NCBI GenBank assembly: GCA_038883795.1
Contig: JAVZLK010000012.1
Location: 1 to 40,023 of the forward strand
DNA: 40,023 bases
Reading direction: 5' to 3'
Source of the DNA: Candidatus Bathyarchaeia archaeon
GTDB taxonomy: Archaea; Thermoproteota; Bathyarchaeia; Bathyarchaeales; Bathycorpusculaceae
Below the pieces are notes generated by a model. It was not told the DNA's origin. It worked only from the letters and a program-made list of their open reading frames with translations, and made no database searches. Shown piece by piece: positions 658 through 14,358 of the stretch. A program made the position numbers and the translations under genes. How positions within the stretch are numbered: position 1 is the first letter of the stretch; each line of letters begins with the position of its first letter.

Positions 658-750
658 AATATTCTTTGTTGATTGTTAAGCGGGGCGTTGAGTCTTGAAA
701 TATGTTAGTTGCGGCTACGAATTATAATAATTTGAAAAGGACTTTTGATT

Positions 751-1365
751 TTAAGTCTTTTGAATTGCCTTCCTTACATCTGTAAATATTGATGCTAAGA
801 ATATGGCTAGCATTAATAGGTGTGGGATTATAAGCGCGGCTGGCACTCTTAAAGGGAATGCAAGGAATGATGGTAAAAGGACGGTTAACGTTGGAATAAC
901 TAAGATTATATTTGAGTTGTTGGGTTTAAGTAGTAATTGTAAATCCCTAGCTTTCAACATTCCAATGAGCATTGCCATTAACATTGTCCACTCAGCTATG
1001 ATGTTTGCTAGGCTTTCAATATCCATACCTGTTCCATAAAGTTGGGTGGTTAAGGGCCAGAATAGTTGCACGTTTCCTGTTATGAAATCTCCTAATAACG
1101 AATGTTGAAGAAGGGCGGCCAGATACGGGAATGCACCCTTTCCAAATAGAACGATTGCTGGAATAAAAATGACGATAGTTGTTAAAATTGAATGGAATGG
1201 GCCGCGGTGCTCGACAAACGGGATTAATAGGTCGATATCTGGAGCTACGGAGAGGGTTAGAACTAGTGGCACGTTGATTTTCGTCTTTGTCAAATTTCCG
1301 GCCAATTTTGCGGTTAGATATCCTAAGGCGAAGTGGCCTATGGCGTACGATTTAATTCCCACCAA
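751..1365 (-). CDS. membrane-bound metal-dependent hydrolase (YdjM/DUF457-like)
   Basis: GH near the N-terminus, PDID, HRGPFHS, HSLLGD and LFWP motifs, and multiple hydrophobic segments. Confidence 0.85.
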   Translation of the reverse strand: MVGIKSYAIGHFALGYLTAKLAGNLTKTKINVPLVLTLSVAPDIDLLIPFVEHRGPFHSILTTIVIFIPAIVLFGKGAFPYLAALLQHSLLGDFITGNVQLFWPLTTQLYGTGMDIESLANIIAEWTMLMAMLIGMLKARDLQLLLKPNNSNIILVIPTLTVLLPSFLAFPLRVPAALIIPHLLMLAIFLASIFTDVRKAIQKT

Positions 1366-1527
1366 TTTTGTTTGTTAGCCTAGTAACATGCAGACCCTCA
1401 TTAATATAGCTAATTGCAATACTTTCAACCAAGTTTAGCGCATAACGCGTTGTTTGCCCCTTTAGAGCAAGTTTTTAATAGTTCATATGCCAAGAAACTA
1501 ATTAATTTTCCTAAGGGTTTGAAGCTC

Positions 1528-1788
1528 ATGGGGGGTAGAAGAAGGGGGGAAGTTCAGATTCTAACCGATATTCTAACCCTGTCTTTGAAGGAGGTGAAAA
1601 TGACTCATTTAATGTATAAGGCAAATTTAAGCTATTCAACTCTTCATAGATATCTTAACGTTGCTTTAAAACGAGATTTGATTAGGAAAGTTTGTAAAGA
1701 TGATGGTTCTGTTGTTTATTGTATTACGGAAAAGGGTAGGCTCCTCTTGGAAAGGCTTAAAGACATTAAGTATGCCCTACAATCCTAA
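1528..1788 (+). CDS. winged helix-turn-helix regulator (archaeal HTH_45-like)
   Basis: RRRGEVQILTDIL...THLMYKANLSY...YL...LI...Y.ITEKGR. Start placed at ATG 1528 rather than the ORF-track start 1414. Confidence 0.85.
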   Translation: MGGRRRGEVQILTDILTLSLKEVKMTHLMYKANLSYSTLHRYLNVALKRDLIRKVCKDDGSVVYCITEKGRLLLERLKDIKYALQS

Positions 1789-1793
1789 TAAGG

Positions 1794-2156
1794 TTAGGTT
1801 AATTCGCTTATGGCAATTTCCTTTAGTCTAGCTTTTAACCTAACCTTTAGCTCCAAATCTCTAGTGGTGTAGTTTCCGATAATCATGTCCTGTATTTTTA
1901 TTTCTCCATACTTTGGCAGAATTATTTCTCCAATAGGCGGCTTGCTTTTTTCAATTTTTTGGTTTAAGTTCAGCAGCCATCTTGAAACTTTTACCTCCCC
2001 TGTTTTGGCGTTATATTCCACAAGGTTGTACCGGCTTAGATCCGTTAGAATTAGGTGAAGCTGCTCCTTTGGGATCTCTGTTTCCTTAACTAACTGCCTA
2101 ATGTTTTTTGTTTTCTGCTCTTCGATGAGTGTTAAAAGGTCTGCAACCGTTACCAT
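1794..2156 (-). CDS. hypothetical protein with N-terminal wHTH-like domain
   Basis: NIRQLVKETEIPKEQLHLILTDLSRYNLVEY has wHTH spacing; beta-rich C-terminal half. Confidence 0.6.
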   Translation of the reverse strand: MVTVADLLTLIEEQKTKNIRQLVKETEIPKEQLHLILTDLSRYNLVEYNAKTGEVKVSRWLLNLNQKIEKSKPPIGEIILPKYGEIKIQDMIIGNYTTRDLELKVRLKARLKEIAISELT

Positions 2157-2391
2157 AGGTTTAAATTTGCGCCCAGCTATATTAAGGGTTAGGAATTTTT
2201 CGTCTATCTAAGATTTGACAGTTTTGTAGAAGAATAGAGAATTTGTCTAGACAACTATCCTAGATTTTTCATACTTATCCATTTAAATACTCGTTTTTGA
2301 ATTTTAATTGGGTGGCGGGGAAAGGACGAGAGATTTCAACGATAAGCCTCTAACCTTTTCGTGTCCGCTTCCGTCAGGGAGGGACTTTATA

Positions 2392-2784
2392 GTGGAGAAC
2401 GTTGTGAATAAAGAATTCGTGGAGGAGCTTAAAAAGGAATGGCGGACTCTGTGGCGGGAGCGGATAGACGATAGGGTTAGGGCTGAAGCCGTAGCTAACC
2501 GCGATTACAGTTCGCTGTTTGTTGAGCGGGGCACTGTGATATTTGCCACAAGAAGGTTTAAGCTGCTAAGCCTTAAAGAAATTTTGCAGATGCATGGCAT
2601 TTTAGACGCAGAAAAGTTTGTTCCGCCTAATCCAGCCGTTGGCGGTTGGGGAAAATTCATAAGAACTGTAATAGCTAACCAGCAATGTCCAAAGCGCAAA
2701 AAAAGAGCGCAACAGTATGGGGAAGGCGAAAAAGGGAAGCAGCAGCTGAAAAAGGGCGGAAGGGGCTGGCTTCACATAATCTAA
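2392..2784 (+). CDS. hypothetical basic protein
   Basis: Part of ORF 2308..2784. The GTG at 2392 follows SD-like GGGAGGG. Trp-rich N-terminus and basic C-terminus (KKGGRGWLH). No family recognised. Confidence 0.65.
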   Translation: MENVVNKEFVEELKKEWRTLWRERIDDRVRAEAVANRDYSSLFVERGTVIFATRRFKLLSLKEILQMHGILDAEKFVPPNPAVGGWGKFIRTVIANQQCPKRKKRAQQYGEGEKGKQQLKKGGRGWLHII

Positions 2785-2842
2785 ACAGTCACTGAGCAGC
2801 ATCCCCGTCTCTTCTTCAAGAAAGCTCGGTTCACGGTGGGAT

Positions 2843-3166
2843 TTGGTTTTGGGCAGCTATAGGAGTAGATTGGACATTATAGCCGACATTCTCTCAGTCG
2901 TTAGAGGCAATGGAAAGGCTAAAAAGACGCAGATCATGTACGGCGCAAATCTTAGCTATGCCGTTTTGACGCGCTACTTGGCTGAGGTTCTAAATGCCTG
3001 CCTCATAAAATTTGAAAGAAGCAAACGCTGTTATGTTCTAACGGAGAAGGGAAGAAAGTTCCTTGAACATTACCGCGAGTATTCTAAGCGGAATAGGCAT
3101 GTGGAACGCCAACTAGAGACCGTTAACGCGAAAAGGAGGGTTCTTGAAGAACTCTGTTCAACCTAA
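2843..3166 (+). CDS. winged helix-turn-helix regulator (archaeal HTH_45-like)
   Basis: RSRLDIIADIL...KKTQIMYGANLSY..L..YL...Y.LTEKGRKFL signature, with a C-terminal coiled-coil-like tail. Confidence 0.9.
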   Translation: MVLGSYRSRLDIIADILSVVRGNGKAKKTQIMYGANLSYAVLTRYLAEVLNACLIKFERSKRCYVLTEKGRKFLEHYREYSKRNRHVERQLETVNAKRRVLEELCST

Positions 3167-3650
3167 ATCTGTTAAGGTGAAATTATTGCAGTTTTCAAAA
3201 ATTTTGATGGTTATGCTCCTATTTTCGGCAACTCTTTTTGTATCGCCTGCCGCTTGCCCCAGCCAAAGTGAAGCTGAATCGCAGATCCAGTTGGCTGAGG
3301 AAGAGGTTCTTAACTGTTATAGGGCTATTTATGAAGCTGAAAAGGCTGGAGCCAATGTGAGCGATTTGCTAAATAGCTTAAATGAGGCTGGATGGCTTTT
3401 ATCCCAAGCTAAACACGCCTATAATCGTGGAGATTATGACTTGGCGTTTTCCCTTGCAAACCAAAGCCTAACAGAATTAGAAGGGTTTATTGAAAAAGCA
3501 AACAGTTTAAGGATGAGTGCTGAGCAAGCTCGCTTTTTTGATTTCATGGTCAATTTTGTGGGTTCAGCTGTAGGCGCCCTAGCTATCGTTGTATGCGGCT
3601 ATGGTGTTTGGCTTAGCCTAAAAAAGAGAGAAAAAGCCGTGAAGGTATAA
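3144..3650 (+). CDS. exported helical protein with C-terminal membrane anchor
   Basis: N-terminal signal-like hydrophobic stretch, amphipathic helices (EAEKAGANVSDLL), C-terminal TM followed by KKREK. Start uncertain. Confidence 0.7.
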   Translation: MKNSVQPKSVKVKLLQFSKILMVMLLFSATLFVSPAACPSQSEAESQIQLAEEEVLNCYRAIYEAEKAGANVSDLLNSLNEAGWLLSQAKHAYNRGDYDLAFSLANQSLTELEGFIEKANSLRMSAEQARFFDFMVNFVGSAVGALAIVVCGYGVWLSLKKREKAVKV

Positions 3651-3653
3651 GTT

Positions 3654-4274
3654 TTGAAGATTAGCGAGTATTGGCTTCTCTATTGGACGGTTGTTGGCGT
3701 TTCAGCCTTACTTGCAGCCTCGCCTTTTCTCAGCAAGATATTGGTTTATCCCAGAACAGAATTCTTCACCGAATTTTGGATTTTGGACGCGAATCATAGG
3801 GCTGAAAATTATCCGTTTAACATTTCACGCAATCAAAATTACACCATTTATTTGGGTATCGGCAACCGTTTAGGCTACTGCGCCTACTATATGGTTCAAG
3901 TGAAGTTTTTAAACTGGTCACAGCTAGATCTTATGCCGACCCGTTTTGGACCTATTGAAGAGCGTCTTCCAAGCAGTTTGCCATCACTTTTCAACTTTAC
4001 AGCCTTTGTGGCTGACGAGCATGTTTACGAAATTCCCATAACATTCTCATTCAATTATACTTGGGATCAGCCGCCGTCAAAGGTTGAGCTTTTAAGTTTA
4101 AGGTTTAATGGTGTGTTGCTAAACATGAGTGACTACACGATATCATGCAATGCTGAGAAGGTTGAGTTTCGTGGTTTTCTGTTTTTTGAGCTATGGTTGT
4201 ATAACCATTCGGCTGGCGGTTTTCTGTATCATGGGCGTTTTGTTGGATTATGGTTTAACATGACGGTTAGCTAA
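3654..4274 (+). CDS. DUF1616 family membrane protein
   Basis: N-terminal TM followed by FTEFWIL...AENYP and LGIGNRLG...Y.V.VK motifs; many N-x-S/T sequons. Confidence 0.75.
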   Translation: MKISEYWLLYWTVVGVSALLAASPFLSKILVYPRTEFFTEFWILDANHRAENYPFNISRNQNYTIYLGIGNRLGYCAYYMVQVKFLNWSQLDLMPTRFGPIEERLPSSLPSLFNFTAFVADEHVYEIPITFSFNYTWDQPPSKVELLSLRFNGVLLNMSDYTISCNAEKVEFRGFLFFELWLYNHSAGGFLYHGRFVGLWFNMTVS

Positions 4275-5282
4275 GTGTTTAAGATGGAAACGGAGCTGAG
4301 GGTTGCTGTTGTTGGTTTCGGCAAGATGGGTATGTTACATGCTGGCATTTTGAATGTCTTGCCAAGGGTGAAGCTTGTCGCCATTTGTGAAAAAAGTGGT
4401 TTGGTTCGAAAGTTTTTGAAAAAGGCTGTTAGGAATGTACAAGTCACGGATTGTGTAGAAAAGCTTGCTGGGCTTAGTTTAGACACTGTTTATGTGACTA
4501 CACCTATAGCATCGCATTTTCCAGTTGTTAAAAGCCTCTATGAACGCGGCGCCTGCTGCAATCTTTTTGTGGAGAAGACTCTTGCCTCAAACTTTAAAGA
4601 AGCTCAGGAGCTTTGCGATTTTACGCGAAAGTTTGGAGGCGTCAACATGGTTGGTTATATGCGGCGTTTCTCCGCCACATTTATGAAAGCAAAAAATTTG
4701 TTAGATGAAGGCGCTATTGGCAAACCAATTTCTTTTAAAGCGTATGCCTATTCCTCTGACTTTTTCGGTTTTGATGAAAATTCGAAGGTTCAAACGCCAA
4801 ATGATGGAGTCGTTAGGGATTTGGGCTGTCACGCTTTGGATTTAGCCTTATGGTTTTTTGGAGATTTATGGGTTAAAGATGCAAAAATTGAGTGTGTTGT
4901 GAACAATGGTTCTATGGATTCTGCCCATTTTAGCGTTAAGGCTTCAAGCGGTGTTACCGGCGAGTTTAATGTTTCATGGTGTGTTGACGGATACCGCATT
5001 CCTGAAGTAGGCTTTATGATTGAAGGTTCTGATGGCAGTCTAAACGTGAACGACGATGAATTAGAGGTAAGCCTCAAAAACGGAAAAAGGCAAAAGTGGT
5101 TTAGGCATGGTCTAGGCGACTTTGTTGGTTTTTGGCTTGGAAGCCCGGAATATTACCGCGAGGACAAGCGTTTCGTTGAGGCTGCTCTTCGAGGCGAACC
5201 CGCCGAGCCCTGTTTCGAAACAGCGGCGAAGGTTGACCGCTTGATAGATGAAGTTTTAGCTAAGGCTGGCCGAATTGAATAG
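4275..5282 (+). CDS. Gfo/Idh/MocA family oxidoreductase
   Basis: GFGKMG Rossmann motif, VTTP..SH, EKT (EKP variant), VGYMRRF, DLGCHALD. Confidence 0.9.
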   Translation: MFKMETELRVAVVGFGKMGMLHAGILNVLPRVKLVAICEKSGLVRKFLKKAVRNVQVTDCVEKLAGLSLDTVYVTTPIASHFPVVKSLYERGACCNLFVEKTLASNFKEAQELCDFTRKFGGVNMVGYMRRFSATFMKAKNLLDEGAIGKPISFKAYAYSSDFFGFDENSKVQTPNDGVVRDLGCHALDLALWFFGDLWVKDAKIECVVNNGSMDSAHFSVKASSGVTGEFNVSWCVDGYRIPEVGFMIEGSDGSLNVNDDELEVSLKNGKRQKWFRHGLGDFVGFWLGSPEYYREDKRFVEAALRGEPAEPCFETAAKVDRLIDEVLAKAGRIE

Positions 5283-6177
5283 TAAAGAAATGGTTTTGCT
5301 TGTTGGCGATAACCCGTTCCATGGAATAAGCCATCTTTCACAGGAGAGAAGCCGCGTTAGAGGGGACACGCCAACCAACCCCGAGTATGCGGCTAAGCTT
5401 ATAATGCTTTCAGTCCAGAACGGCGCCGACGGGTTCATGTTTTCTGTCAGCGAGAAAACCCTCTCAATTTTGGATGTTCTGCGGAAGAACGGCGAAAACA
5501 ACGGGTTACGCCTATATGCCATTGTCCCTTATGCTTACGAGTATGTTAGGCTGGCCTGTGCAGCTGGAGGAGTTCCAGGACTAGCCAAAAAGCTGGTTAA
5601 GGAAATTGTTTTTTCTGGGAACCTGCGCGCTGCAGCCTCGGGTCTAAATGGAGTTTTAAGGTCTGATTTGGCTTCGCTTGTTAAGACTTATCTGCTTTAT
5701 GAAGTTTCTAGGGTCAGGCATTCTGCAGGTGGAAAAGCCAAGCTTGAGTCTGTTTTGCTGCATCAGCTTATAACTGATTTGTGCCTCAGTTTAGGCCTAG
5801 ACTGGGTTTTTAGGTTCTATACTGAGTTTTTGCTGAAGGCTGGCATAATTCCCGGGTTTAACACTGGCAATTTTGCCTTTTTGGTGGAAAAGTTTAGGAA
5901 GTGGGACATAAACCTAAACGATGTTGTGATTGCTGCGCCGTTTAACAAGGTTGGCTTCCAAATGGTCCCTTCGAGGGAGGAATGCGAAAAAGTTTTGGGA
6001 AACATGCCAAAACCTAATGTTTTGGCTGTTAGCATCTTGGCGGCTGGCTATCTAAAGCCTGAAGAGGCTGTGGACTATATAGCGGGTTTGCCAAACATAA
6101 AAGGCGTGGCGGTAGGCGTCTCAAAAGAAAAGCATGCCACGGAAACTTTTAAGCTGTTAAGAGAGAAGCTCACATGA
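5275..6177 (+). CDS. conserved hypothetical protein, probable TIM-barrel/aldo-keto-reductase-like fold
   Basis: LLVGDNPFHGISH N-terminus, PFNKVGFQM and SILAAGYL motifs; overlaps the stop of the upstream oxidoreductase. Confidence 0.6.
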   Translation: MNSKEMVLLVGDNPFHGISHLSQERSRVRGDTPTNPEYAAKLIMLSVQNGADGFMFSVSEKTLSILDVLRKNGENNGLRLYAIVPYAYEYVRLACAAGGVPGLAKKLVKEIVFSGNLRAAASGLNGVLRSDLASLVKTYLLYEVSRVRHSAGGKAKLESVLLHQLITDLCLSLGLDWVFRFYTEFLLKAGIIPGFNTGNFAFLVEKFRKWDINLNDVVIAAPFNKVGFQMVPSREECEKVLGNMPKPNVLAVSILAAGYLKPEEAVDYIAGLPNIKGVAVGVSKEKHATETFKLLREKLT

Positions 6178-6189
6178 GCTTTTACTGCT

Positions 6190-6260
6190 GCCGGGGTGGC
6201 CGAGGATTTAGGCGGCAGCCTGCAGAGCTGCTTACGTTGGTGAAAATCCAACCCCCGGCT
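6190..6260 (+). tRNA. tRNA-Cys(GCA) with non-canonical D and T loops
   Basis: Acceptor GCCGGGG/CCCCGGC 7/7, D stem GCC/GGC, anticodon stem GCAGC/GCTGC with loop CTGCAGA (GCA at 6222-6224), 4-nt variable loop, T stem GTTGG/CCAAC with loop TGAAAAT, discriminator U (Cys identity element). CCA not encoded, no intron. Confidence 0.92.
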
Positions 6261-6319
6261 TCATATAATTTGAAGCATGATTTGGAGTCAAAGCAAGATT
6301 AATTGGTTGGGGTATTTTA

Positions 6320-7450
6320 TTGGCGTTTTCTTTGCGTGTGATCAATAATGTCAATTCATTTCTCAAGATAAGGGATAAATGGAATGCTTTTATAATTGGT
6401 AATAGCAATAACCCCTTTCTTTTATGTGAGTTTGTCAAAGGGTTTATGAATCTTGCTTTTTCAAAAAAGTGGCATCCGTTGATTTTCGTTGCATTTTCTA
6501 GCGGGGAAATTGTTGGTATGGCGCCTTTTGTCTTAAAAAGACGTTTTAATGCCTTTTCAGCAGGTTTTCTTTACGCGTCCCACTTTTCCCCAGATTTTCT
6601 TGTGAAGAATGAGTATAGGCGAAGTTTCTTAAACCGCGTGTTCACTTTATTATTTAGGTATTCAGGATGTAAGCTTTTAGATTTAATATTGCCCTCATCA
6701 TCTCCGAACGTTGGCGTTCTTAAATTAATTTGTAAAGAAAATCACATGAAGTTTTGTTCATCTTCCATGGTTTATTTGAGTCATTGCGTTGTTCCCGTTG
6801 AGAGGTCATGGAGCGATTTTGAGAAGATAATGGGAAGTAACTTTCGAAGGTATTTTAAACGAATTGAACGGAAAATGATGGAATCTGGTGGCTATGAAGT
6901 TATTTCTGTAAATAAATTTGATAATTCCGTGCTTGAAGATATCTTTTATGTTGAGCGAAGAAGCTGGAAGGAAAAATGGAGAAGGCAAAAAGGTATAAAT
7001 GCTGACGGAGAACTTATAAAAATTTTAGAAGGTATTAAAGAAATAGATTCTGAATTTTCAACCTTTAAATGGAATATTTGGCTTCTAAAAATTAATGGCG
7101 AGTTAGCATCCTATGCGCTTACTATACAGTTTAAAGACGTCGGATACGTGGTTAAGACATCTTTTAACGAAAAATTCCGGAATTATTACCCAGGTACTTA
7201 TTTAGTCAACGCGGCAGTTAGGGGTTTTTTTGAGCGTACAGCGGTAAAAATAATTGATTTTCAAACAAATCTTCCTTTTATGGAGAAATGGAAACCTATA
7301 ATTTACCCAAGAACAAGAATTATGATGGGACAAGGGAGTCTCTTCTCTTCCATAGCCAACATTTCAACGAACAAAGTTTTTTGTATCCTCAGGGATCAAT
7401 TAGTAGGTCCATTTATTGCTAAACTTCCTTACCTTCCTCTTAGTTTATAG
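6320..7450 (+). CDS. CelD/BcsL family GNAT (Acetyltransf_6; FemAB-like double-GNAT architecture)
   Basis: W near the N-terminus, NPFL, IVGMAPF, NFRRYFKRIERK, SWK, TSFNEKFRNYYPGTYL, DF...FMEKW. Confidence 0.8.
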   Translation: MAFSLRVINNVNSFLKIRDKWNAFIIGNSNNPFLLCEFVKGFMNLAFSKKWHPLIFVAFSSGEIVGMAPFVLKRRFNAFSAGFLYASHFSPDFLVKNEYRRSFLNRVFTLLFRYSGCKLLDLILPSSSPNVGVLKLICKENHMKFCSSSMVYLSHCVVPVERSWSDFEKIMGSNFRRYFKRIERKMMESGGYEVISVNKFDNSVLEDIFYVERRSWKEKWRRQKGINADGELIKILEGIKEIDSEFSTFKWNIWLLKINGELASYALTIQFKDVGYVVKTSFNEKFRNYYPGTYLVNAAVRGFFERTAVKIIDFQTNLPFMEKWKPIIYPRTRIMMGQGSLFSSIANISTNKVFCILRDQLVGPFIAKLPYLPLSL

Positions 7451-7462
7451 AAGATTCGCTTC

Positions 7463-7819
7463 TTGGAGATGTTGAGTTGTTTGAAAGCAAAAAGGTGTGA
7501 AAAGAATTCAAAGTTAAATTTAGTCCCTGGAGAGGTTGTTGAGGTTAAGACGGTCGATGAAATAATGAGTACTTTAGATGAAAAGGGAACTTTAGAAGGT
7601 TTACCATTCATGCCAGAGATGTATAAATACTGCGGCAAGAGATTCAAAGTTTTCAAGCGAGTTAACAAGCTAATTATAGAAGGATTAGGCACGTTACGAA
7701 AAATTGAGAATGTTGTAATTCTTGAAAAAGCAATTTGCAGCGGGGAATACCATGGCGGTTGTAAGAGGTCATGTATGTTGTTGTGGAAGGAAGCATGGTT
7801 AAAGAGGGCAAATCCATAA
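7463..7819 (+). CDS. Cys-rich SH3-like repeat protein, first repeat (probably 5' part of a frameshifted two-repeat gene)
   Basis: LNLVPGEVVEVK...TLD..G...GLPFMPEMYKYCGKRFKVFKRV...CSGEYHGGCKRSC...WKEAWLKR; strongly similar to the C-terminal half of 7771..8391. Confidence 0.75.
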   Translation: MEMLSCLKAKRCEKNSKLNLVPGEVVEVKTVDEIMSTLDEKGTLEGLPFMPEMYKYCGKRFKVFKRVNKLIIEGLGTLRKIENVVILEKAICSGEYHGGCKRSCMLLWKEAWLKRANP

Positions 7820-8391
7820 AAGCCAAGGAAAACAAAGATAAGCCTTTTAGCTGTGCTGAAAACGAGTTTAGTTGCCAATTTACGAATTTAATCAAAGCTA
7901 CTAAACCTATCAGCGCTTGGGATTTCCGTCATTATTTTTGGGAAGCAAAATCTGAAACACGCGACGGGATATTGCAGCTCTTGTCTAGGATGGTCAAGCC
8001 CTTTAAGATTAAAATAGACCTATTTTTTAAATCAGAAAAATATTATTTGAAAAGCAGAAGAAAAACCACGCCAACGGAATCATTAAACCTAAAACCTGGA
8101 GAATTCGTTGAAGTTAAAAGTATAAAGGAAATACTTAAAACACTTGATTCAAGGGGAAGAAATCGCGGATTGGAGTTCATGCCAGAAATGCTGAAATATT
8201 GTGGCAAACGTTTTAGGGTTTTCAAAAGAGTTGATAAGATGATTGATGCTACAGGACGCATTAGGCCGATACATAACACCGTTATTTTGGATGGGGTGAC
8301 TTGTGATGGATCAGCTCATAGAGGCTGTCAGAAAACCTGTTTCTGTCTTTGGAGGGAAATTTGGCTTAAAAGAGTTGGTCAAGACAGATGA
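7771..8391 (+). CDS. Cys-rich SH3-like repeat protein, linker plus second repeat (probably 3' part of the same gene)
   Basis: Overlaps the previous ORF in the -1 frame. Linker FSCQFTNLIKATKPISAWD, then LNLKPGEFVEVK...FMPEMLKYCGKRFRVFKRV...CDGSAHRGCQKTC...WREIWLKRV. Confidence 0.75.
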   Translation: MYVVVEGSMVKEGKSIKAKENKDKPFSCAENEFSCQFTNLIKATKPISAWDFRHYFWEAKSETRDGILQLLSRMVKPFKIKIDLFFKSEKYYLKSRRKTTPTESLNLKPGEFVEVKSIKEILKTLDSRGRNRGLEFMPEMLKYCGKRFRVFKRVDKMIDATGRIRPIHNTVILDGVTCDGSAHRGCQKTCFCLWREIWLKRVGQDR

Positions 8392-9389
8392 GCTTTGCTA
8401 AAGATTTATTGAGACAAACATTAAGGAGGCAGTTACTAATTCGTTCACTTTATCTCCTTCCAAGCTATGTCCAAATCGAGCCAACGGCAAAATGTAACCT
8501 AAGCTGCAAGACTTGCATAAGATCTAGGGCAAACCCGGTTGAAGAAGCTGACATGAATCTCGGTTTGTTTAAATCAATTGTAGACCAGTTAAGGCAATCA
8601 TGGTATAAAACGAGGGCTTTGAACCTCACCGGACTTGGAGAACCATTCATGAACCCAAATTTGGTTCAAATGGTAAGTTACGCCAAAGATAAGGGCTTGA
8701 ACGTTGGTATGAATACCAATTTAACGATGGTAAATGAGGACATATTAAAGAATTTAATAAAGGCCGGACTTGATTGGCTAACGGTTTCCATTGATGGTGC
8801 TACAAAGGAAACGTTTGAAAACATAAGAGTTGGAGCCATATTTGAGGGAGTGGTTGAAAACATAAAGTTCACTATTGATTTAAGGGAAAGGATGAATGCC
8901 AAAAGACCACGAATCTATTTAAACTATACGATATGTGAACAAAATATTCAAGAGATACCGGAAATGATTAAATTAGCTGATGATTTGAGAGTAAATGGCA
9001 TAGGTTTTATGAAACAAGTTGTCCCTGGTATAAGTTATTCAGAAAAGCCACCGCTAAATCCGTTGCCTGAAAATAAGTGGCTCAATAGAAAGATTAAGGC
9101 CACTTTTCACTTGACTGTGGTGTCAAGCTGTGTGGTTCCTAGAAGTTGTTATATAACTTTCGATGGCAAAGTTCTGCCGTGCTATCCTTTATATGAACTT
9201 GTTCCTAGAGGTGAATATTCATCTTACCAATTTGGGGACTTGAGCGCGCAGTCACTCCGTGAAATTTGGTTTTCAATGCGTTATAGAAACTTCCGCGCCA
9301 AAAACATTAGCGGAACACGATTGCCTATATGTAAAAGTTGCCCTTTTGGAAAGGTTGAATTAAACCGAAAAATAGACGCTTCCAGATGA
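8388..9389 (+). CDS. radical SAM protein with SPASM/twitch-like C-terminal domain
   Basis: CNLSCKTC, GLGEPF, NTN, VSIDG...IRVG; C-terminal C...GKVLPC...G.L....L.EIW...CKSC. Confidence 0.92.
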   Translation: MSFAKDLLRQTLRRQLLIRSLYLLPSYVQIEPTAKCNLSCKTCIRSRANPVEEADMNLGLFKSIVDQLRQSWYKTRALNLTGLGEPFMNPNLVQMVSYAKDKGLNVGMNTNLTMVNEDILKNLIKAGLDWLTVSIDGATKETFENIRVGAIFEGVVENIKFTIDLRERMNAKRPRIYLNYTICEQNIQEIPEMIKLADDLRVNGIGFMKQVVPGISYSEKPPLNPLPENKWLNRKIKATFHLTVVSSCVVPRSCYITFDGKVLPCYPLYELVPRGEYSSYQFGDLSAQSLREIWFSMRYRNFRAKNISGTRLPICKSCPFGKVELNRKIDASR

Positions 9390-9437
9390 ACCACCGAAGA
9401 TTTAAAACAGATTTTATGCAGTTTTGTTGGGATTTAT

Positions 9438-10601
9438 TTGAAAGTTAAAGAGGTTGATTTTCAAAGTTTAAAAAATGATTGGGATACACTATTAAACAGA
9501 AATATTTTAGGAAACAACGTTTTTCTTACATGGGAGTGGCTTTCAACGTGGTGGAAACACTTCGGCGAAGGAAGGAAATTACTACTTTTAATCGTTGAAG
9601 ATAAAGGTGAAATTATAGCAATCGCCCCATTAATGTTATCCAAGTATAAACTACCAATTTTCGGCACAATTAAAAAAGTTGAATTCGTTGGAGTTGGGCA
9701 ATCCGACTATAACAATTTTATAATTTTGAAAAAGGAAGCAGAATGTATTAAGTTTATATTAGATTATTTAGTAAATGCAGTGGCGGATTGGGATTGGGTT
9801 GAACTCAAGGAAATCCCAGAAACAAGTGAGAATCTTAATTATTTAGGGAAAGTTTTTGCCAGTACACAGCAGGAGTTAAAACTAAACAAACGTGTCTGTA
9901 ACATGTGCCCCTATATTCCTCTACCAAATTCCTTTGATATGTTACTTAAGAAATTAGGTAGAAACATGAGGCAAAACCTAAATAAGTATTTAAGAAAAAT
10001 TAAATCAAATCATCGTATCATTGAGTTCAAAAAGTACGATGAAACAGGTTTTTCCGTGGCAGATGCTATGAAGCTTTTTACGAAGTTGCATGAGGCAAGA
10101 TGGACCGCTGAAGGATCAGGCGGAGCTTTTAAGAACAACCCATGCTTCCGTAACTTTCATTTTGAAGTAGCGGAAATCTTTGCTAATAAAGGGTGGTTAG
10201 GGCTTTATTTTCTACTAGTCGACCATGAACCTGTTTCAACACAATACGCCTTTGAGTACGAAGGCAAAATATACTATTACTTAGGAGGTTTCAATCCGGA
10301 GTACTCCCGATATTCCGTGGGAAATCTAACTATAATGTTTCTTTTAGAAAGAGGTATACAAAAAGGTTTTAAAGAATATGACATGATGAGAGGAAACGAA
10401 CCATACAAGTTATTTTGGACACGCAATGTTAGAAGAAATTTTGAGATAAGACTTGTAAAGAAGGGAATAACCAGAAAGGTTTACAATTGGTTGACATGGA
10501 GCGACGTAGTCAATAGTCTTGCTGCAAAATTAAAGCTCTCATTAAAAATGGACTGTGCCCAGCAAATTTTAAGGAGCGTTTCTAATGAGCCAAAAAAATA
10601 A
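9438..10601 (+). CDS. CelD/BcsL family GNAT (Acetyltransf_6; FemAB-like double-GNAT architecture)
   Basis: FLTWEWLSTWW, IAIAPL, SDY, RQNLNKYLRK, LH..RW, YYYLGGFNPEYSRYSVG, YDMMRGNEPYK..W. Confidence 0.9.
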   Translation: MKVKEVDFQSLKNDWDTLLNRNILGNNVFLTWEWLSTWWKHFGEGRKLLLLIVEDKGEIIAIAPLMLSKYKLPIFGTIKKVEFVGVGQSDYNNFIILKKEAECIKFILDYLVNAVADWDWVELKEIPETSENLNYLGKVFASTQQELKLNKRVCNMCPYIPLPNSFDMLLKKLGRNMRQNLNKYLRKIKSNHRIIEFKKYDETGFSVADAMKLFTKLHEARWTAEGSGGAFKNNPCFRNFHFEVAEIFANKGWLGLYFLLVDHEPVSTQYAFEYEGKIYYYLGGFNPEYSRYSVGNLTIMFLLERGIQKGFKEYDMMRGNEPYKLFWTRNVRRNFEIRLVKKGITRKVYNWLTWSDVVNSLAAKLKLSLKMDCAQQILRSVSNEPKK

Positions 10602-11268
10602 AGTAATAGTAGTATTTGCTCCACATCCTGATGATGAGACATTTGGATGCGGTGGAACAATTGCTAAAAAAATTAGCGAAGGTTTTAATGTTTTAGTGGT
10701 TGTAATGACTGATGGCAGAAACCTGTTAAAAAGTATTCTAAACATTGAAGATGATCCTCCGCCTAACGATGTTAAAGACATTAGAAGAAAAGAGGTGCTT
10801 AAAGCCACTAAAATTCTCGGTATACCTCATGATAATGTAATATTTTTTGATTTCGAGGATGGGTGTCTCAGCGATTATGAAGCGGAAGCCGAGGAGAAAG
10901 TTTGTGAAATATTGAGTCGTTATCGGCCTGTTGAGGTGTATCTTCCATTTGAAAATGATGGCCATAGGGATCACATAGTGACGAATAGAATAGTGAAAAA
11001 ATGTGTAAAAGAGCTTAATTTGGAGCCTGAAATGTATCAATATTGTATTATGCATAAGTTTGCACGCTTCGGACCAATATTTGAGAGAATAATAGGCTTA
11101 TTTAGAAAAAACATTGTTAAAGTGGATGTTTCGCAATTCTTGAAGATCAAAGAATTGGCTGTCAAGGAGTTTAAGAGTGAGTTTTCTATAATTTCAAGCA
11201 AGCAAAGTAAACCTTTAGAAGATAAAATCGATAAATACCTAAAAAAGAATGAGTTCTTCTTCCGATAA
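10585..11268 (+). CDS. PIG-L/LmbE family N-acetyl-sugar deacetylase (MshB/BshB-like)
   Basis: APHPDDETFGCGG, TDG, RRKE, DG, GHRDH metal-binding and catalytic motifs. Confidence 0.92.
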   Translation: MSQKNKVIVVFAPHPDDETFGCGGTIAKKISEGFNVLVVVMTDGRNLLKSILNIEDDPPPNDVKDIRRKEVLKATKILGIPHDNVIFFDFEDGCLSDYEAEAEEKVCEILSRYRPVEVYLPFENDGHRDHIVTNRIVKKCVKELNLEPEMYQYCIMHKFARFGPIFERIIGLFRKNIVKVDVSQFLKIKELAVKEFKSEFSIISSKQSKPLEDKIDKYLKKNEFFFR

Positions 11269-11316
11269 TTAAGGAGAACTACTTACCAAAATAATTCTAA
11301 TGTTAAAGCGATTGAA

Positions 11317-12429
11317 ATGATACAGTTTTTGTTTTTAATTTCTCTATTCATCTTCTTGACAACTTATTCAGTATACTTTCCCTACCTAAGCAGGTATGCT
11401 AAGAAATCTTGGAATATTAAAGTTGATATCTCATTTGAGCCTGAAATGTCAATCTTAATTCCCGCACATGACGAAGAAGATAACATAGAGGCAAAGCTCG
11501 AAAACATTAGAAATGTTTCATATCCCAAAGCGAAGATCGAAATAATAGTGGCAGATGACGGTTCAATTGATAATACGGTGCAAAAGGTTCAAAGTTTTAT
11601 GCAAAGATACCCAGATTTTAAAATTAAATTGGTGAAGCAGAATCCGCGGGCTGGAAAATCAGCTGCATTAAATAAAGCATTGCTAGTTTGTACTAAACCT
11701 ATTATAGTTGTTTCCGATGCGGACACAAGGTGGCCCCCAGATATTTTAAGGAAAGCTATGCCCTATCTGGCTGATCCAAGTGTTGGCGCTGTTACTGGGC
11801 GAGGCGTAAACTTGAATGCTGAGGAGTCATGGGTGACTAGGGCTGAAGAATCATACTTGCAGCTTGTGAATTTATTGAGGCTTGGCGAATCAAAGATTCA
11901 TTCAACAATAAGATTTGAGGGTGGATTCTGTGCTTATAAGCGAACTGCCTTTGATATGTTTGATTGTGAGACAGGTTCAGACGATTCTGGAACGGCGTTG
12001 AGGGTTGTCTCCAAGGGTTACCGAAGCATATTAGTTCCAGAAGTTATATTTTATACGAATTTTCCACCAAGCTTCACCGCGAAGTTTAGAATTAAGGTTC
12101 GGCGTGCCAATCAGTTGATTGGATTATGGTTTAAATGTCTAAAGCTTCTTTTTGGAAGGAATCTTTCTCTGCCTAAAAAAATAGCGGTACCTGAAATAGC
12201 GCTGTTTATCTTTAACCCAATGGTATTTTTGTTGTCGACAGTCAGCGGCATGATTTTAGTAATTATGAATCCATTTTCTCCGTTAAGTTTGGCGATCATT
12301 TTTTCGGTTTTAATCTCATTAGTTTTGGCGAGGCAAGCCTTTATTGAGCTTCTTATTGATAACATCATTTTGGCCTATGCCACAACCACTTTCCTGTTTG
12401 GTCGGCGTTATGTTGCTTGGGGAAGATGA
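11317..12429 (+). CDS. membrane GT2 glycosyltransferase (cellulose-synthase-like layout)
   Basis: IPAHDEE, DDGS, GKSAALN, DAD, SDD, and KVRRA in place of QxxRW; N- and C-terminal TM segments. Confidence 0.88.
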   Translation: MIQFLFLISLFIFLTTYSVYFPYLSRYAKKSWNIKVDISFEPEMSILIPAHDEEDNIEAKLENIRNVSYPKAKIEIIVADDGSIDNTVQKVQSFMQRYPDFKIKLVKQNPRAGKSAALNKALLVCTKPIIVVSDADTRWPPDILRKAMPYLADPSVGAVTGRGVNLNAEESWVTRAEESYLQLVNLLRLGESKIHSTIRFEGGFCAYKRTAFDMFDCETGSDDSGTALRVVSKGYRSILVPEVIFYTNFPPSFTAKFRIKVRRANQLIGLWFKCLKLLFGRNLSLPKKIAVPEIALFIFNPMVFLLSTVSGMILVIMNPFSPLSLAIIFSVLISLVLARQAFIELLIDNIILAYATTTFLFGRRYVAWGR

Positions 12430-12442
12430 TTAAAACAGAACT

Positions 12443-13345
12443 TTGGTGATTATATTGGGCTTGGTTGGATTGGCTGAATGTAAAAACCGAAGTGCCAACT
12501 TGATTAAAGAAGCTGTTCGAGAAGCGCTTAAATTAATTGATTTCTCATTTCCTAAGGCTAAAAAAATAGTTATTAAGCCAAATATGTGTTATTACTGGGA
12601 TTGGTCTACTGGACAAACCACAGATCCAATGTTTGTTGTTGCATTGATAAACCTACTTCGGGAGGAAATTTCTGAAGACGTTGAAATTTCTGTTGTAGAA
12701 TCCGATGCATCAGCTATGAAGTGTAAGTATGCCTTCAAGCATTTGGGTTATGAAAAGCTTGCGAAAGAGTATGATGTGAACTTAGTTAATCTTTCTGAAA
12801 CCGAATCCGAAAAAACATCAGTGAAAGTTGAAAATGAGATCTTTGAGTTTTTGGTTCCTAAGATCATAAAAGACGCGGATTTACGTGTGAATGTTCCTAA
12901 GATGAAGTATATGAATTTCACAAAAATTTCTGGTGCATTAAAAAACATTTATGGATGCAATCCTTACCCAAAGAAGTTTCAGTACCATTCGAAACTAAAT
13001 GAGGTAATTGTAGCATTGAATAAAGTTATGCCGTTCAACCCGCATATCCTTGATGGTTTAACCGTTTGCGGCTCGAAAACTTTAAGACTAGGACTTGTTA
13101 TGGCAAGCCAAGATCCAGTGGCTATGGATGCTGTTGTCTCAACAATTTTGGGCATTAACCCTAGATCCGTGACGCATATAAAACTTGCAGAAAAGGAAGG
13201 TTTGGGAAGCACTTCTTACATAGAAAGAGGAGTGAACTTAGACTACTTTAAAAGGAAATATCCTAGAAGAAAGTTTTCAGAAAAGGTTTTGTCTTTTGGG
13301 TACATGGCCGTGTGCAAATTGGGTTTAGATAAACGCTTAATATAA
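12443..13345 (+). CDS. DUF362 domain protein
   Basis: IVIKPN, TTDP, VPKMK, SGALKN.YG, DG, S.DPVAMD motifs. Confidence 0.85.
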   Translation: MVIILGLVGLAECKNRSANLIKEAVREALKLIDFSFPKAKKIVIKPNMCYYWDWSTGQTTDPMFVVALINLLREEISEDVEISVVESDASAMKCKYAFKHLGYEKLAKEYDVNLVNLSETESEKTSVKVENEIFEFLVPKIIKDADLRVNVPKMKYMNFTKISGALKNIYGCNPYPKKFQYHSKLNEVIVALNKVMPFNPHILDGLTVCGSKTLRLGLVMASQDPVAMDAVVSTILGINPRSVTHIKLAEKEGLGSTSYIERGVNLDYFKRKYPRRKFSEKVLSFGYMAVCKLGLDKRLI

Positions 13346-13359
13346 AGCCGTGAGAAGTT

Positions 13360-14358
13360 ATGGAAAAAGTTAATTTAGGCATTATCGGGCTTGGTTTTAT
13401 AGGTAAAGTTCACTTAAGAAACAGCATTAAATTGAAATCTGCCAAGGTTTTAGCTGTTGCGGATGTATCTAGGAGGGCTTTAGACTATGCTAGAAACTTC
13501 GGCGTTAAACATTTGTTCACAGATTACCATAGTCTATTAAAATTTAGAGATGTTGATGCTGTGATAATTTCACTTCCTACTCATCTTCATGCGGAGTGCG
13601 CAATAAGTGCAATGGAAGAAGGAAAACATGTTTTTTTGGAGAAGCCTCTTGCAAGGAATCCAGAAGAAGGAGAAAAAATAGTTTCAACTGCAAATAAAAA
13701 TGGTGTAAAATTAATTGTAGGTTATCCTTTGAGGTTTGTTCCTGAATTTAAAAAGCTTAAGGAGGAAATTGAAAGTGGAGTTTTAGGGGACGTGCAGATA
13801 GCGCACGCTGTTAACATTGGCGCTGGTCCTTTTTTCCATAGGGCTGAGAGCACTATACCTAAGCCCGTTCCAGAGTGGTGGCTTAATAAAGACTTGACTG
13901 GTGGGGGAGTGTTAACAGACTTGGGGAGCCATATGATAAATTTGACACGCTGGTACTTTGGGGAAGTCAAGGAAATTAAAGCTTGCCTCGGTTACCGCTT
14001 TAATTTAGATGTTGAAGATCATGCAATATGTATTGCTGATTTTAACTCCGGAGTAAAAGCTGTCATAAATGTGGGTTGGTTTTCTCAAAAAGCAGCTATA
14101 GGCATTGAGTTATACGGAACGATAAGCCATTTCAGTTTTTTTGAACATCCACAAAATAAAGTGATGACGGCTATAAACTTAATTTTTGGTAAATTGCCGA
14201 AATTCTTTAAGCCTTACTTTGCTGAGCTGAAGCAATTCGTTGATTGTATAAAAAATGATGAGGGAGTTCCTATTCCTTCTGGTTATGATGCGTTAGAAGA
14301 TTTGAAGGTAATAGCTAAAGCATATAGAAATCAATTGCTTGATGCTGCCTTATCATAG
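13360..14358 (+). CDS. Gfo/Idh/MocA family oxidoreductase (probable NDP-sugar dehydrogenase)
   Basis: GLGFIG, LPTHLH, LEKP, GGGVLTDLGSH. Confidence 0.92.
   Translation: MEKVNLGIIGLGFIGKVHLRNSIKLKSAKVLAVADVSRRALDYARNFGVKHLFTDYHSLLKFRDVDAVIISLPTHLHAECAISAMEEGKHVFLEKPLARNPEEGEKIVSTANKNGVKLIVGYPLRFVPEFKKLKEEIESGVLGDVQIAHAVNIGAGPFFHRAESTIPKPVPEWWLNKDLTGGGVLTDLGSHMINLTRWYFGEVKEIKACLGYRFNLDVEDHAICIADFNSGVKAVINVGWFSQKAAIGIELYGTISHFSFFEHPQNKVMTAINLIFGKLPKFFKPYFAELKQFVDCIKNDEGVPIPSGYDALEDLKVIAKAYRNQLLDAALS

What the first reader, a model, noticed from the sequence alone, without database searches (positions are those of the whole stretch)
6190..6260. tRNA-Cys with an apparently co-varied elbow (G18G19 to A,U; T loop UUC to UGA)
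Seen: acceptor, anticodon and T stems are fully Watson-Crick and the Cys identity elements (GCA, U73) are intact, yet the D loop reads AGGATTT and the T loop TGAAAAT. My alignment to a typical archaeal tRNA-Cys places U at 19 and A at 56, a Watson-Crick replacement of the universal G19-C56 pair, with A18/G55 replacing G18/U55. T-stem pairs U50-A64 and U51-A63 are at positions known to tune elongation-factor affinity. Inference: compensation with intact stems suggests a maintained specialised tRNA rather than decay. D-loop numbering is ambiguous by eye.
Basis: partly seen in the sequence, partly recalled or inferred. Interest (0 to 1): 0.7.

Follow-up and report, generated by a model that had tools for sequence, protein, structure and literature searches.

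The report
Second tRNA-Cys with rewired elbow
A hot-spring archaeon carries, beside its normal cysteine tRNA, a conserved second copy whose corner-forming loops have changed together and which always sits in a sugar-coat gene cluster next to enzymes that resemble those taking amino acids from tRNAs for cell-wall building.

Summary
Window 6190-6260 (+) is a tRNA-Cys(GCA) with perfect stems, U73, D loop GAGGATTTA and T loop UGAAAAU. It is the only one of 50 tRNAs in this Bathyarchaeia genome with G55/A56. A canonical tRNA-Cys and a single CysRS are also present.

It is a maintained paralogue, not decay or an assembly error. G55-type copies occur in 14 of 401 genomes of the order. In an alignment of 15 such copies plus one U55 intermediate, 98% of stem cells pair and 10 of 21 pairs show compensatory changes. 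An invariant A sits where G18 is expected, and the next base tracks base 56 as U-A, U-G or G-C.

Every copy lies in one glycan gene cluster. Ten of the 14 genomes hold the Fem-like gene 'Fem2', against 48 of 387 others. Fem1 and Fem2 models match FemX/FemA best.

My best reading, at about 45%, is a cysteine donor for Fem-type aminoacyl-tRNA transferases, an archaeal parallel to the staphylococcal non-proteogenic tRNA-Gly.

The main counter-evidence is genome G414. There a G55 tRNA-Cys outside any such cluster seems to be the only one. No expression data exist.

The parts
6190..6260 (+). tRNA-Cys(GCA) paralogue ('tRNA-Cys*'), 71 nt, no encoded CCA; starts 12 nt after the stop codon of the upstream gene
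   Evidence: ARAGORN; Rfam RF00005 at 53.6 bits; 16-sequence alignment A2 with 98.2% of cells paired
6202..6210 (+). D loop GAGGAUUUA. A14 and G15 are kept. 6205 is variable (position 16/17). 6206 is an invariant A, proposed A18. 6207 is U, proposed U19.
   Evidence: Invariant columns; cmscan's alternative register; dinucleotide rule
6241..6247 (+). T loop UGAAAAU, with U54, G55 (6242), A56 (6243), A57 and A58
   Evidence: G55 is in all 15 G55-type rows of A2; only the G138 intermediate has U55. Base 56 is A, G or C.
6222..6224 (+). Anticodon GCA, followed by G37; U73 lies at 6260
5275..6177 (+). Conserved 300-aa protein with no Pfam or NCBIfam family ('X300'). It is the gene directly upstream of the tRNA in the window and in 6 other assemblies.
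4275..5282 (+). GFO/IDH/MocA oxidoreductase, a conserved cluster member
   Evidence: synteny
3654..4274 (+). DUF1616-like protein. In other genomes the tRNA follows this gene directly.
6320..7450 (+). 'Fem1': a tandem-GNAT, PF13480 protein 60 nt downstream of the tRNA
   Evidence: PF13480 at E 2.5e-9. AF2 model at pLDDT 88.5. Best fold matches are FemX, MprF and a tandem GNAT. The orthologue lies next to the tRNA in L041.
7463..8391 (+). Cys/His-rich two-repeat protein, in two frames in the window (7463-7819 and 7771-8391) and whole (309 aa) in L041
8388..9389 (+). Radical SAM/SPASM enzyme
9438..10601 (+). 'Fem2': a tandem-GNAT, PF13480 protein and the Fem-like gene most often found with the tRNA
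   Evidence: PF13480 at E 6.8e-28. AF2 model at pLDDT 87.5. The top 8 fold matches are FemX/FemA. Co-occurrence.
10585..11268 (+). PIG-L family de-N-acetylase, closest to BshB1/MshB-type models but below their cut-offs; adjacent to Fem2
   Evidence: Next to or one gene from Fem2 in 13 of the 16 loci that I tallied by eye.
11317..14358 (+). GT2 glycosyltransferase, DUF362 protein and a second GFO/IDH/MocA oxidoreductase: the conserved downstream part of the cluster

Best explanation
This is a maintained second tRNA-Cys gene ('tRNA-Cys*') of Bathyarchaeia.

Shown: its stems and the Cys identity marks (GCA, G37, U73, and the same acceptor stem as the housekeeping tRNA-Cys) are kept. The genome holds one CysRS.

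Shown: its elbow is rebuilt, not broken. A replaces G18, G replaces U55, and the 19-56 pair is U-A instead of G-C.

Shown: the gene is embedded in a surface-glycan cluster that encodes one to three Fem/MprF-type tandem-GNAT enzymes beside a PIG-L de-N-acetylase.

Inferred: the single CysRS charges it with cysteine. Cys-tRNA-Cys* then serves as the preferred amino-acid donor for these Fem-type aminoacyl-tRNA transferases. They would add cysteine to a free amine of a deacetylated or aminated sugar.

Inferred: the changed elbow and the weaker 51-63 pair partition this tRNA away from translation, or towards the transferase. The model is the non-proteogenic tRNA-Gly of staphylococci.
For: 1. It is a real tRNA, and the only one of 50 in the genome with G55/A56.

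2. A canonical tRNA-Cys exists on C5 and C39, with one CysRS and no SepRS above cut-off. A canonical tRNA-Cys was found in 12 of 15 genomes with the G55 type. Nine of these were read whole. G318, G399 and G367 rest on 5'-half pattern matches only.

3. It is under purifying selection. In A2 (15 G55-type copies plus the G138 intermediate) 98.2% of cells pair and 10 of 21 pairs change on both sides. None of 500 shuffles reaches this.

4. It is one lineage. The 18 G55-type copies split from the canonical copies at 99% bootstrap. Support falls to 58% once G414 and more canonical copies are added.

5. Linkage. All copies lie in the same cluster, after X300 or after DUF1616. In the 9 loci with 8 kb or more beyond the tRNA, a Fem2 homologue lies within about 10 kb, and a PIG-L gene in 8 of them. 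In genus g17 the tRNA lies beside the Fem2b paralogue, and on both sides of it in G323 and G259.

6. Co-occurrence. Ten of 14 tRNA* genomes hold Fem2, against 48 of 387 others (Fisher p = 1.2e-6; kin are not independent). Three of the four exceptions have contigs that end within 2 kb of the tRNA. Congeners G002-G004 lack the tRNA, Fem1 and Fem2 alike. The closest orthologous loci without the tRNA (L033, L036, L037, L042) also lack Fem1, rSAM, Fem2 and PIG-L.

7. Enzymes. The Fem2 model's top 8 PDB matches are FemX/FemA (E 1.6e-13 to 7e-12). Next come aa-tRNA-dependent Sbb17/Sba18 and MprF. Fem1 matches FemX and MprF. A third gene in the clusters of G038, G134, G280, G138 and G318 passes Pfam FemAB PF02388 at 52-86 bits against a cut-off of 24.

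8. Precedent. Staphylococcal non-proteogenic tRNA-Gly genes have TGC/TGT instead of TTC (G55) and U or C at 18 with U19. Their 51-63 pair is A-U instead of G-C, and FmhB, FemA and FemB prefer them (PMC7826273, passages; PMC4574755, passages).
Against: 1. G414, from another family and 89% complete, has two tRNA-Cys genes with A18-G19/G55-C56. They lie outside any Fem or glycan cluster, and no canonical tRNA-Cys was found there. A G55/A18 elbow therefore does not by itself exclude a tRNA from translation.

2. No intact canonical tRNA-Cys was found in G134 (93% complete), in G155 (98%, only two 3' fragments) or in G062.

3. Forty-eight genomes have Fem2 homologues without this tRNA. Twenty-nine distant Fem1-like loci have no tRNA-Cys beside them.

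4. In genus g17 some copies erode while Fem2b stays. G332 is a pseudogene. G367 and G245 have stem mismatches and U37.

5. The 19-56 pair is kept as Watson-Crick. That is what a tRNA still using the ribosome, RNase P and the CCA enzyme would also need.

6. Fem1 and Fem2 themselves reach only PF13480, not Pfam FemAB, and acyl-CoA use is not excluded.

7. There is no evidence on expression, charging or any product.
Confidence: 0.45

Rival explanations
1. It is an ordinary extra translational isoacceptor. The elbow change (A18/G55, U19-A56) is a neutral, structurally compensated variant of tRNA-Cys that Bathyarchaeia tolerate. The gene merely travels with a horizontally exchanged glycan cluster and adds tRNA-Cys dosage.
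For: In G414 a G55-type tRNA-Cys appears to be the sole tRNA-Cys, away from any Fem cluster. No canonical copy was found in G134, G155 or G062. All identity elements, U33 (except in G062), G37 and a Watson-Crick 19-56 pair are kept. The intermediate form in G138 (A18 with U55-C56) sits in the same cluster. The patchy distribution across six families fits transfer together with the cluster.
Against: A redundant hitch-hiker would not be expected to stay intact, with compensatory changes, across family-level divergence. Nor would it keep its linkage while its position inside the cluster shifts: after X300, after DUF1616, or on both sides of Fem2b. Its presence tracks Fem-type genes even within one genus. 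It shares G55, a non-G18, U19 and a weak 51-63 pair with the only known Fem-dedicated tRNAs.
Confidence: 0.3
2. It is a donor for a tRNA-dependent step other than Fem-type transfer to a sugar. One candidate is cysteine addition to, or modification on, a peptide or protein, involving the neighbouring Cys/His-rich protein and the radical SAM/SPASM enzyme. Another is a PLP enzyme acting on the aminoacyl-tRNA.
For: In the window and in L041 the tRNA is followed by Fem1, the Cys/His-rich protein and rSAM/SPASM. In G038, G056, G134, G318 and G138 the gene right after the tRNA is an open reading frame of about 370 aa. Pfam named it a class I/II PLP aminotransferase in G038 and G056, the only two tested. 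A PLP decarboxylase and an ATP-grasp ligase follow in G038. Cys-tRNA-dependent peptide extension is known for PEARL enzymes (PMC12945691, passage read).
Against: These neighbours differ between genomes, whereas Fem2-type genes are the common denominator. No LanB/PEARL-like gene appeared among the cluster genes that I scanned.
Confidence: 0.12
3. It is a relic of integration: a tRNA gene used as an attachment site, duplicated and left beside variable island DNA, with no present function, or decaying.
For: Gene content immediately downstream of the tRNA varies. Duplicated copies occur in G323, G259 and G280, one of them decayed (L045 5094-5165). Eroded copies occur in G332, G367 and G245. A tRNA-Pro 3' fragment lies at window 564-589.
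Against: The window has no direct repeat of this tRNA within 1-12000. The 564-589 fragment matches tRNA-Pro(GGG), not Cys. I saw no integrase among the cluster genes scanned. The window copy has perfect stems, and the family shows compensatory changes.
Confidence: 0.08

Closest known systems
Non-proteogenic tRNA-Gly (NP1, NP2, NP3/'NEW') of Staphylococcus aureus and S. epidermidis, used by FmhB/FemA/FemB
   Same: Both are extra isoacceptors beside canonical ones, charged by the single synthetase. Both have G instead of U at 55 (TGC/TGT in the gene), a non-G at 18, U at 19, and a weaker 51-63 pair than the proteogenic copy. Both occur in organisms that encode Fem-type tandem-GNAT transferases (PMC7826273, passages; PMC4574755, passages).
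   Different: This one is archaeal and carries cysteine rather than glycine. Base 56 has changed too, so 19-56 can still pair (U-A). The tRNA gene is physically inside the Fem-gene cluster. The acceptor is probably a glycan or amino sugar rather than a peptidoglycan lipid II peptide. No biochemical data exist. According to PMC7826273, such tRNAs had been detected only in those two staphylococci (passage).
FemX/FemA/FemB, MprF and Sbb17/Sba18 aminoacyl-tRNA-dependent transferases
   Same: The Fem1 and Fem2 models share the tandem-GNAT fold, and their best PDB matches are FemX and FemA. Sbb17/Sba18 aminoacylate an amino-sugar intermediate, which is the chemistry proposed here (PDB titles; reference title seen).
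   Different: Sequence identity is 9-14%. Fem1 and Fem2 reach only PF13480, not Pfam FemAB. PDB sequence searches find nothing. Use of aa-tRNA, the amino acid and the acceptor are all untested.
Mycothiol and bacillithiol pathways (PIG-L deacetylase MshB/BshB followed by Cys ligation to glucosamine by MshC/BshC)
   Same: A PIG-L family deacetylase sits directly beside the proposed cysteine-adding enzyme. Its best NCBIfam models are BshB1, BshB2, Mca and MshB. The proposed product would carry Cys on an amino sugar.
   Different: The PIG-L scores fall below those families' cut-offs (78.8 against 182.5 bits). The ligase here would be a tRNA-dependent Fem-type enzyme, whereas MshC is an ATP-dependent CysRS paralogue described as tRNA-independent (PMC2922099, passage). 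The cluster looks like surface-glycan synthesis, with several GT2 genes.
Canonical archaeal tRNA-Cys of the same order
   Same: It has the same acceptor stem, D stem, anticodon loop CUGCAGA, discriminator U73 and presumably the same CysRS.
   Different: It has G18-G19 and U54-U55-C56, G51-C63, a 10-nt D loop and a different variable loop. It is never seen in the glycan cluster.

Membership tests
tRNA (Rfam RF00005) | Cloverleaf with 7-bp acceptor stem, anticodon stem-loop and T stem-loop, scoring above the gathering threshold | tested here: met
   53.6 bits against a gathering score of 29, model positions 1-71; ARAGORN; 98.2% of cells paired over 16 homologues
tRNA (Rfam RF00005) | Conserved elbow nucleotides G18, G19, U55 and C56 | tested here: not met
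   The T loop is UGAAAAU. The D loop has an invariant A and then U where G18-G19 are expected.
tRNA-Cys identity | Anticodon GCA and discriminator U73 (identity set recalled from the literature) | tested here: met
   GCA at 6222-6224 and U at 6260, with an acceptor stem identical to the genome's canonical tRNA-Cys. One CysRS is present in the genome. Charging itself was not tested.
Fem-dedicated 'non-proteogenic' tRNA (staphylococcal tRNA-Gly type) | Extra isoacceptor beside a canonical one | tested here: met
   A canonical tRNA-Cys lies on C5 and C39. It coexists in 12 of 15 genomes carrying the G55 type.
Fem-dedicated 'non-proteogenic' tRNA (staphylococcal tRNA-Gly type) | Loss of G18-G19 and of U55 (TGN in the T loop), plus a weak pair among the first three T-stem pairs | tested here: met
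   A18/U19, G55, and U51-A63 against G51-C63 in the canonical copy. Compared with passages of PMC7826273 and PMC4574755.
Fem-dedicated 'non-proteogenic' tRNA (staphylococcal tRNA-Gly type) | Poor binding to the elongation factor and ribosome, and preferential use by a Fem transferase | not testable with these tools
   This needs biochemistry. G414, where a G55 tRNA-Cys seems to be the only one, argues that G55 alone does not bar translation.
Fem/MprF aminoacyl-tRNA transferases (for Fem1 and Fem2) | Tandem GNAT fold like FemX | tested here: met
   Fem2 matches FemX at E 1.6e-13 with TM 0.58/0.65. Fem1 matches FemX at E 4.3e-12 with TM up to 0.60/0.66.
Fem/MprF aminoacyl-tRNA transferases (for Fem1 and Fem2) | Match to Pfam FemAB (PF02388) above its cut-off | tested here: not met
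   Only PF13480 matches for Fem1 and Fem2, even at E up to 1. A third cluster gene in 5 related genomes does pass, at 52-86 bits.
Fem/MprF aminoacyl-tRNA transferases (for Fem1 and Fem2) | Use of aminoacyl-tRNA as the acyl donor | not testable with these tools
   Inferred from the fold and from linkage to the tRNA gene only

The most novel reading that the evidence does not exclude
Bathyarchaeia run a tRNA-dependent cysteinylation pathway. A dedicated tRNA-Cys, marked by a re-coded elbow (A18-G55 and U19-A56), is kept out of translation. It hands cysteine to Fem-type ligases that acylate the amine freed by a PIG-L deacetylase on an amino sugar. The product is a thiol-bearing surface glycan or a new Cys-aminosugar low-molecular-weight thiol. 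This would be the first dedicated non-proteogenic tRNA in Archaea, the first for cysteine, and a natural example of 18-55 and 19-56 elbow covariation used as an identity mark.
Probability: 0.25. Interest if true: 0.88.

Novelty: new variant of a known kind. Interest (0 to 1): 0.7.

Why it matters
Dedicated tRNAs that feed Fem transferases are known from only two staphylococcal species (PMC7826273, passage). An archaeal cysteine-specific counterpart, encoded inside the gene cluster it would serve, would show that splitting a tRNA pool between translation and wall or glycan synthesis evolved more than once, with the same marks (G55, loss of G18, U19, weak 51-63).

It would also point to an unknown cysteine-decorated glycan or thiol in an abundant uncultured archaeal class.

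Independently of function, the family is a natural experiment on the tRNA elbow. G18-U55 is replaced by A18-G55 in two lineages, and 19-56 switches between G-C, U-A and U-G. This can be tested structurally, and it implies loss of the near-universal archaeal modifications at 55 and 56 (the modifications are recalled knowledge, not tested here).

Tried and rejected
- Assembly or base-call error: rejected.
- A trait shared by all tRNAs of the organism: rejected, 1 of 50.
- An att-site duplicate in the window: no direct repeat of the tRNA in 1-12000. The tRNA-like piece at 564-589 is the 3' end of tRNA-Pro(GGG).
- A SepRS/SepCysS route: no SepRS above cut-off, best 56 bits against 380.
- Sequence searches of Fem1, Fem2 and the Fem2 profile against PDB chains: nothing meaningful. 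The large T antigen hits at E 0.02 or worse are chance.
- NCBIfam for X300, Fem2 and the Cys/His-rich protein: nothing.
- ESM Atlas for X300: only unnamed clusters.
- Distant Fem1-like loci: of 30 loci, only the window's own has the tRNA.
- BLAST-type searches for canonical tRNA-Cys missed intact genes that pattern searches later found. 'Not found' from those calls is therefore weak. G410 (locus L058) yielded no tRNA-Cys of any kind and is uninformative.
- Expression: no RNA holder was listed.
- The fixed-register test of column 20 against 56 pairs in 12 of 16. No single register fits all copies.
- Promoter: A/T-rich boxes about 25-35 nt upstream in several homologues were seen by eye only. 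In the window the nearest box is 37-43 nt upstream, inside the upstream gene. This is not counted as evidence.
- Literature: four full-text searches listed no paper joining Bathyarchaeia or archaea with Fem enzymes, or with an unusual tRNA-Cys. Only the listed top hits were looked at. Supplementary files were not opened, and the tRNA-Gly sequences of the cited papers are in figures or supplements that I did not see.
Full report
**The object**

Window 6190-6260 (+) is called tRNA-Cys(GCA) by ARAGORN. Rfam's tRNA model matches it end to end at 53.6 bits, against a gathering score of 29. The sequence reads as follows.

| Part | Sequence or position |
|---|---|
| Acceptor stem | GCCGGGG/CCCCGGC |
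| Positions 8-9 | UG |
| D stem (3 bp) | GCC/GGC |
| D loop | GAGGAUUUA (6202-6210) |
| Anticodon stem | GCAGC/GCUGC |
| Anticodon loop | CUGCAGA |
| Variable loop | UUAC |
| T stem | GUUGG/CCAAC |
| T loop | UGAAAAU (6241-6247) |
| Discriminator | U |

No CCA is encoded. The gene starts 12 nt after the stop codon of the upstream gene.

**The genome**

Record titles of relatives name Bathyarchaeia. Runs holding the stretch are hot-spring metagenomes. The assembly has 2.18 Mb in 81 contigs and is 87% complete.

ARAGORN finds 50 tRNAs in it. T loops begin TTC in 44, TCC in 3 (tRNA-Glu UUC), ATC in 2 (tRNA-Thr UGU), and TGA only in the window's tRNA.

A canonical tRNA-Cys is present on C5 and C39. 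It has the D loop GAACGGUUCA, the T loop UUCAACU, and the same acceptor stem. There is one CysRS at 527.7 bits and no SepRS above cut-off.

Contigs of run X1 are identical over the tRNA. Contigs from two other studies carry the junction of the tRNA 3' half with Fem1. It is therefore not an assembly error.

**A conserved paralogue**

Several searches found G55-type tRNA-Cys copies: a BLAST of relatives, synteny through the upstream protein, a metagenome pattern scan and two pattern scans of 401 genomes of the order.

- In the second order scan, 24 genomes matched the pattern. Fourteen of the matches are tRNA-Cys genes and 10 lie in no tRNA.
- One more genome (G062) and two metagenome contigs also carry a copy.
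- The 14 genomes belong to families f1, f2, f3, f6, f7 and f11.

In the 16-row alignment A2, the cloverleaf pairs in 98.2% of cells. Ten of 21 pairs change on both sides, and none of 500 shuffles reaches this.

A maximum-likelihood tree splits the 18 G55-type copies from the canonical ones at 99% bootstrap. Support falls to 58% after G414 and more canonical copies are added. With about 72 columns, such trees are weak.

Some copies in genus g17 are eroding:
- G332 is a pseudogene.
- G367 and G245 have stem mismatches and U37.
- G155 and G259b have a C50-A64 mismatch.
- One of two copies in G280 has a broken acceptor stem.

**The elbow**

cmscan keeps a G at 18 and places A at 19, with lowered posterior. 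Across homologues the fourth D-loop base varies (G, A or U), while the A after it is invariant. That fits position 18 better. The base after that A tracks base 56:

| D-loop bases | Base 56 | Copies |
|---|---|---|
| A-U | A | most copies |
| A-U | G | contig L130 |
| A-G | C | G259a, G259b, G137, and G138 (which keeps U55) |

G323 (C-G with C56), G155 and G245 do not fit the A-N rule. In all, 16 of 19 copies fit, and a permutation test gives p about 0.004. That value is not corrected for kinship, and the register is flexible.

With a fixed alignment column the count is 12 of 16.

G414, in another family, has tRNA-Cys genes with A-G in the D loop and UGCAAAU in the T loop. They group with canonical sequences in the tree. 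The A18/G55 change therefore seems to have arisen twice.

I read this as real but modestly supported covariation at 18:55 and 19:56.

**Context**

All copies lie in one gene cluster. The order is: small proteins A, B, C; a DUF1616-like protein; a GFO/IDH/MocA oxidoreductase; the 300-aa protein X300; the tRNA; variable genes; a second GFO oxidoreductase; DUF362; Fem2; PIG-L; and GT2 glycosyltransferases.

The tRNA follows X300 in the window, G038, G056, G113, G062 and G399. So does the decayed second copy of G280. It follows DUF1616 in G134, G318, G323, G259, G155 and G137.

The genes right after the tRNA come in two sets:
- Fem1, a Cys/His-rich protein and rSAM/SPASM, in the window and G062.
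- A class I/II aminotransferase, methyltransferases, a PLP decarboxylase, an ATP-grasp ligase and a FemAB-family gene, as scanned in G038. Relatives hold BLAST-level or size-matched counterparts. Pfam confirmed the FemAB gene in G134, G280, G138 and G318.

In the 9 loci with 8 kb or more beyond the tRNA, a Fem2 homologue lies within about 10 kb. A PIG-L gene does so in 8 of them.

Order-wide, Fem2 homologues (E at most 1e-30) occur in 58 of 401 genomes. They occur in 10 of the 14 tRNA* genomes and in 48 of the other 387 (Fisher p = 1.2e-6, kin not independent).
- Three of the four exceptions have contigs that end within 2 kb of the tRNA.
- The fourth, G137, has a Fem1-like gene 10 kb away.

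The three congeners in the sample lack the tRNA, Fem1 and Fem2 alike. The closest orthologous loci without the tRNA also lack the Fem1-to-PIG-L block.

**The enzymes**

Fem2 (387 aa) and Fem1 (376 aa) hit only PF13480. AlphaFold models built on 27 and 15 sequences reach pLDDT 87.5 and 88.5.
- Fem2's eight best PDB matches are FemX/FemA. Next come the aa-tRNA-dependent peptide synthases Sbb17/Sba18 and MprF.
- Fem1's best matches are FemX, MprF and a tandem GNAT of the clavulanate pathway.
- The PIG-L protein's best NCBIfam models are BshB1, BshB2, Mca and MshB, all below cut-off.

**Comparison with what is known**

Staphylococcal non-proteogenic tRNA-Gly genes have several marks that differ from the proteogenic copies:
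- They have TGC/TGT instead of TTC in the T loop, and U or C at 18 with U at 19.
- Their 51-63 pair is A-U where the proteogenic copies have G-C.
- They bind EF-Tu weakly, and FmhB, FemA and FemB prefer them.
- They are said to be known only in S. aureus and S. epidermidis (PMC7826273 and PMC4574755, passages read).

The window's tRNA shares G55, a non-G18, U19 and the weakened 51-63 pair. It differs in four ways. It is archaeal. It is cysteine-specific. It keeps a pairable 19-56. It is encoded inside the Fem cluster. Four literature searches listed nothing on such an archaeal system.

**Counter-evidence**

- G414 has only G55-type tRNA-Cys genes, and none lies near Fem genes.
- No intact canonical copy was found in G134, G155 or G062.
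- Many Fem2 genomes lack the tRNA.
- Some g17 copies are eroding.
- The compensated elbow is what a translating tRNA would need.

**Verdict**

I put the dedicated-donor reading at about 0.45, a plain extra isoacceptor at about 0.30, another tRNA-dependent use at about 0.12, and an integration relic at about 0.08.

Noticed in passing
G000 contigs C1:145801-145875, C23:242-317, C38:270-345 (not in the window): Three tRNA-Glu(UUC) genes have the T loop UCCGAAU (C at 55), while a fourth copy on C31 has the usual UUCAAAU. This may be another T-loop variant tRNA in the genome, or a strain variant.
   Followed up: no
window 564-589: This 26-nt stretch is identical to the 3' end of this genome's tRNA-Pro(GGG), with CCA and no 5' half. 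It looks like an attachment-site remnant and is unrelated to the tRNA-Cys.
   Followed up: partly
window 7463-8391: A Cys/His-rich protein with two internal repeats (74% identical over 69 nt at 7607 and 8176) is in two overlapping frames here but is one 309-aa frame in L041:2709-3635. The listed rows of the read lay-out show no insertion or deletion at the frame change, but 560 rows were not shown.
   Followed up: partly
L394:1501-1572 and L399:1499-1572 (genome G414): In another Bathyarchaeia family, two tRNA-Cys genes carry the D loop GAGCAGCUA and the T loop UGCAAAU. They lie outside any Fem cluster, and no canonical tRNA-Cys was found in that 89%-complete genome.
   Followed up: partly
L389 (G155 C5:778561-778582 and 779360-779381): Two partial 3' pieces of a canonical-type tRNA-Cys lie 800 nt apart, about 30 kb from that genome's tRNA-Cys*. 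No intact canonical gene was found there. This may be the footprint of integrations into tRNA-Cys.
   Followed up: no
L041:1370-1440 (genome G062): This tRNA-Cys* copy has the anticodon loop UCGCAGA, with C instead of the universal U at position 33.
   Followed up: no
L040, L041, L055, L056, L063, L066 and others: Close homologues of the 300-aa protein (up to 78% identity) sit in records titled WOR-3, Aenigmatarchaeota, Chloroflexota or Dehalococcoidia. Some may be mis-binned Bathyarchaeia contigs. Others may reflect real spread of the glycan cluster.
   Followed up: no
G000 whole assembly: Several tRNA genes occur in near-identical multiple copies on short contigs (Ser-GCT four times, Glu-UUC four times, the Ile-GAU/Arg-UCG pair three times, the canonical Cys twice). 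This suggests strain redundancy in the bin.
   Followed up: no
L288 (G323 C4) and L327 (G259 C6): In genus g17 two copies of tRNA-Cys* lie on both sides of the Fem2b paralogue. In G323 the two copies are identical.
   Followed up: partly
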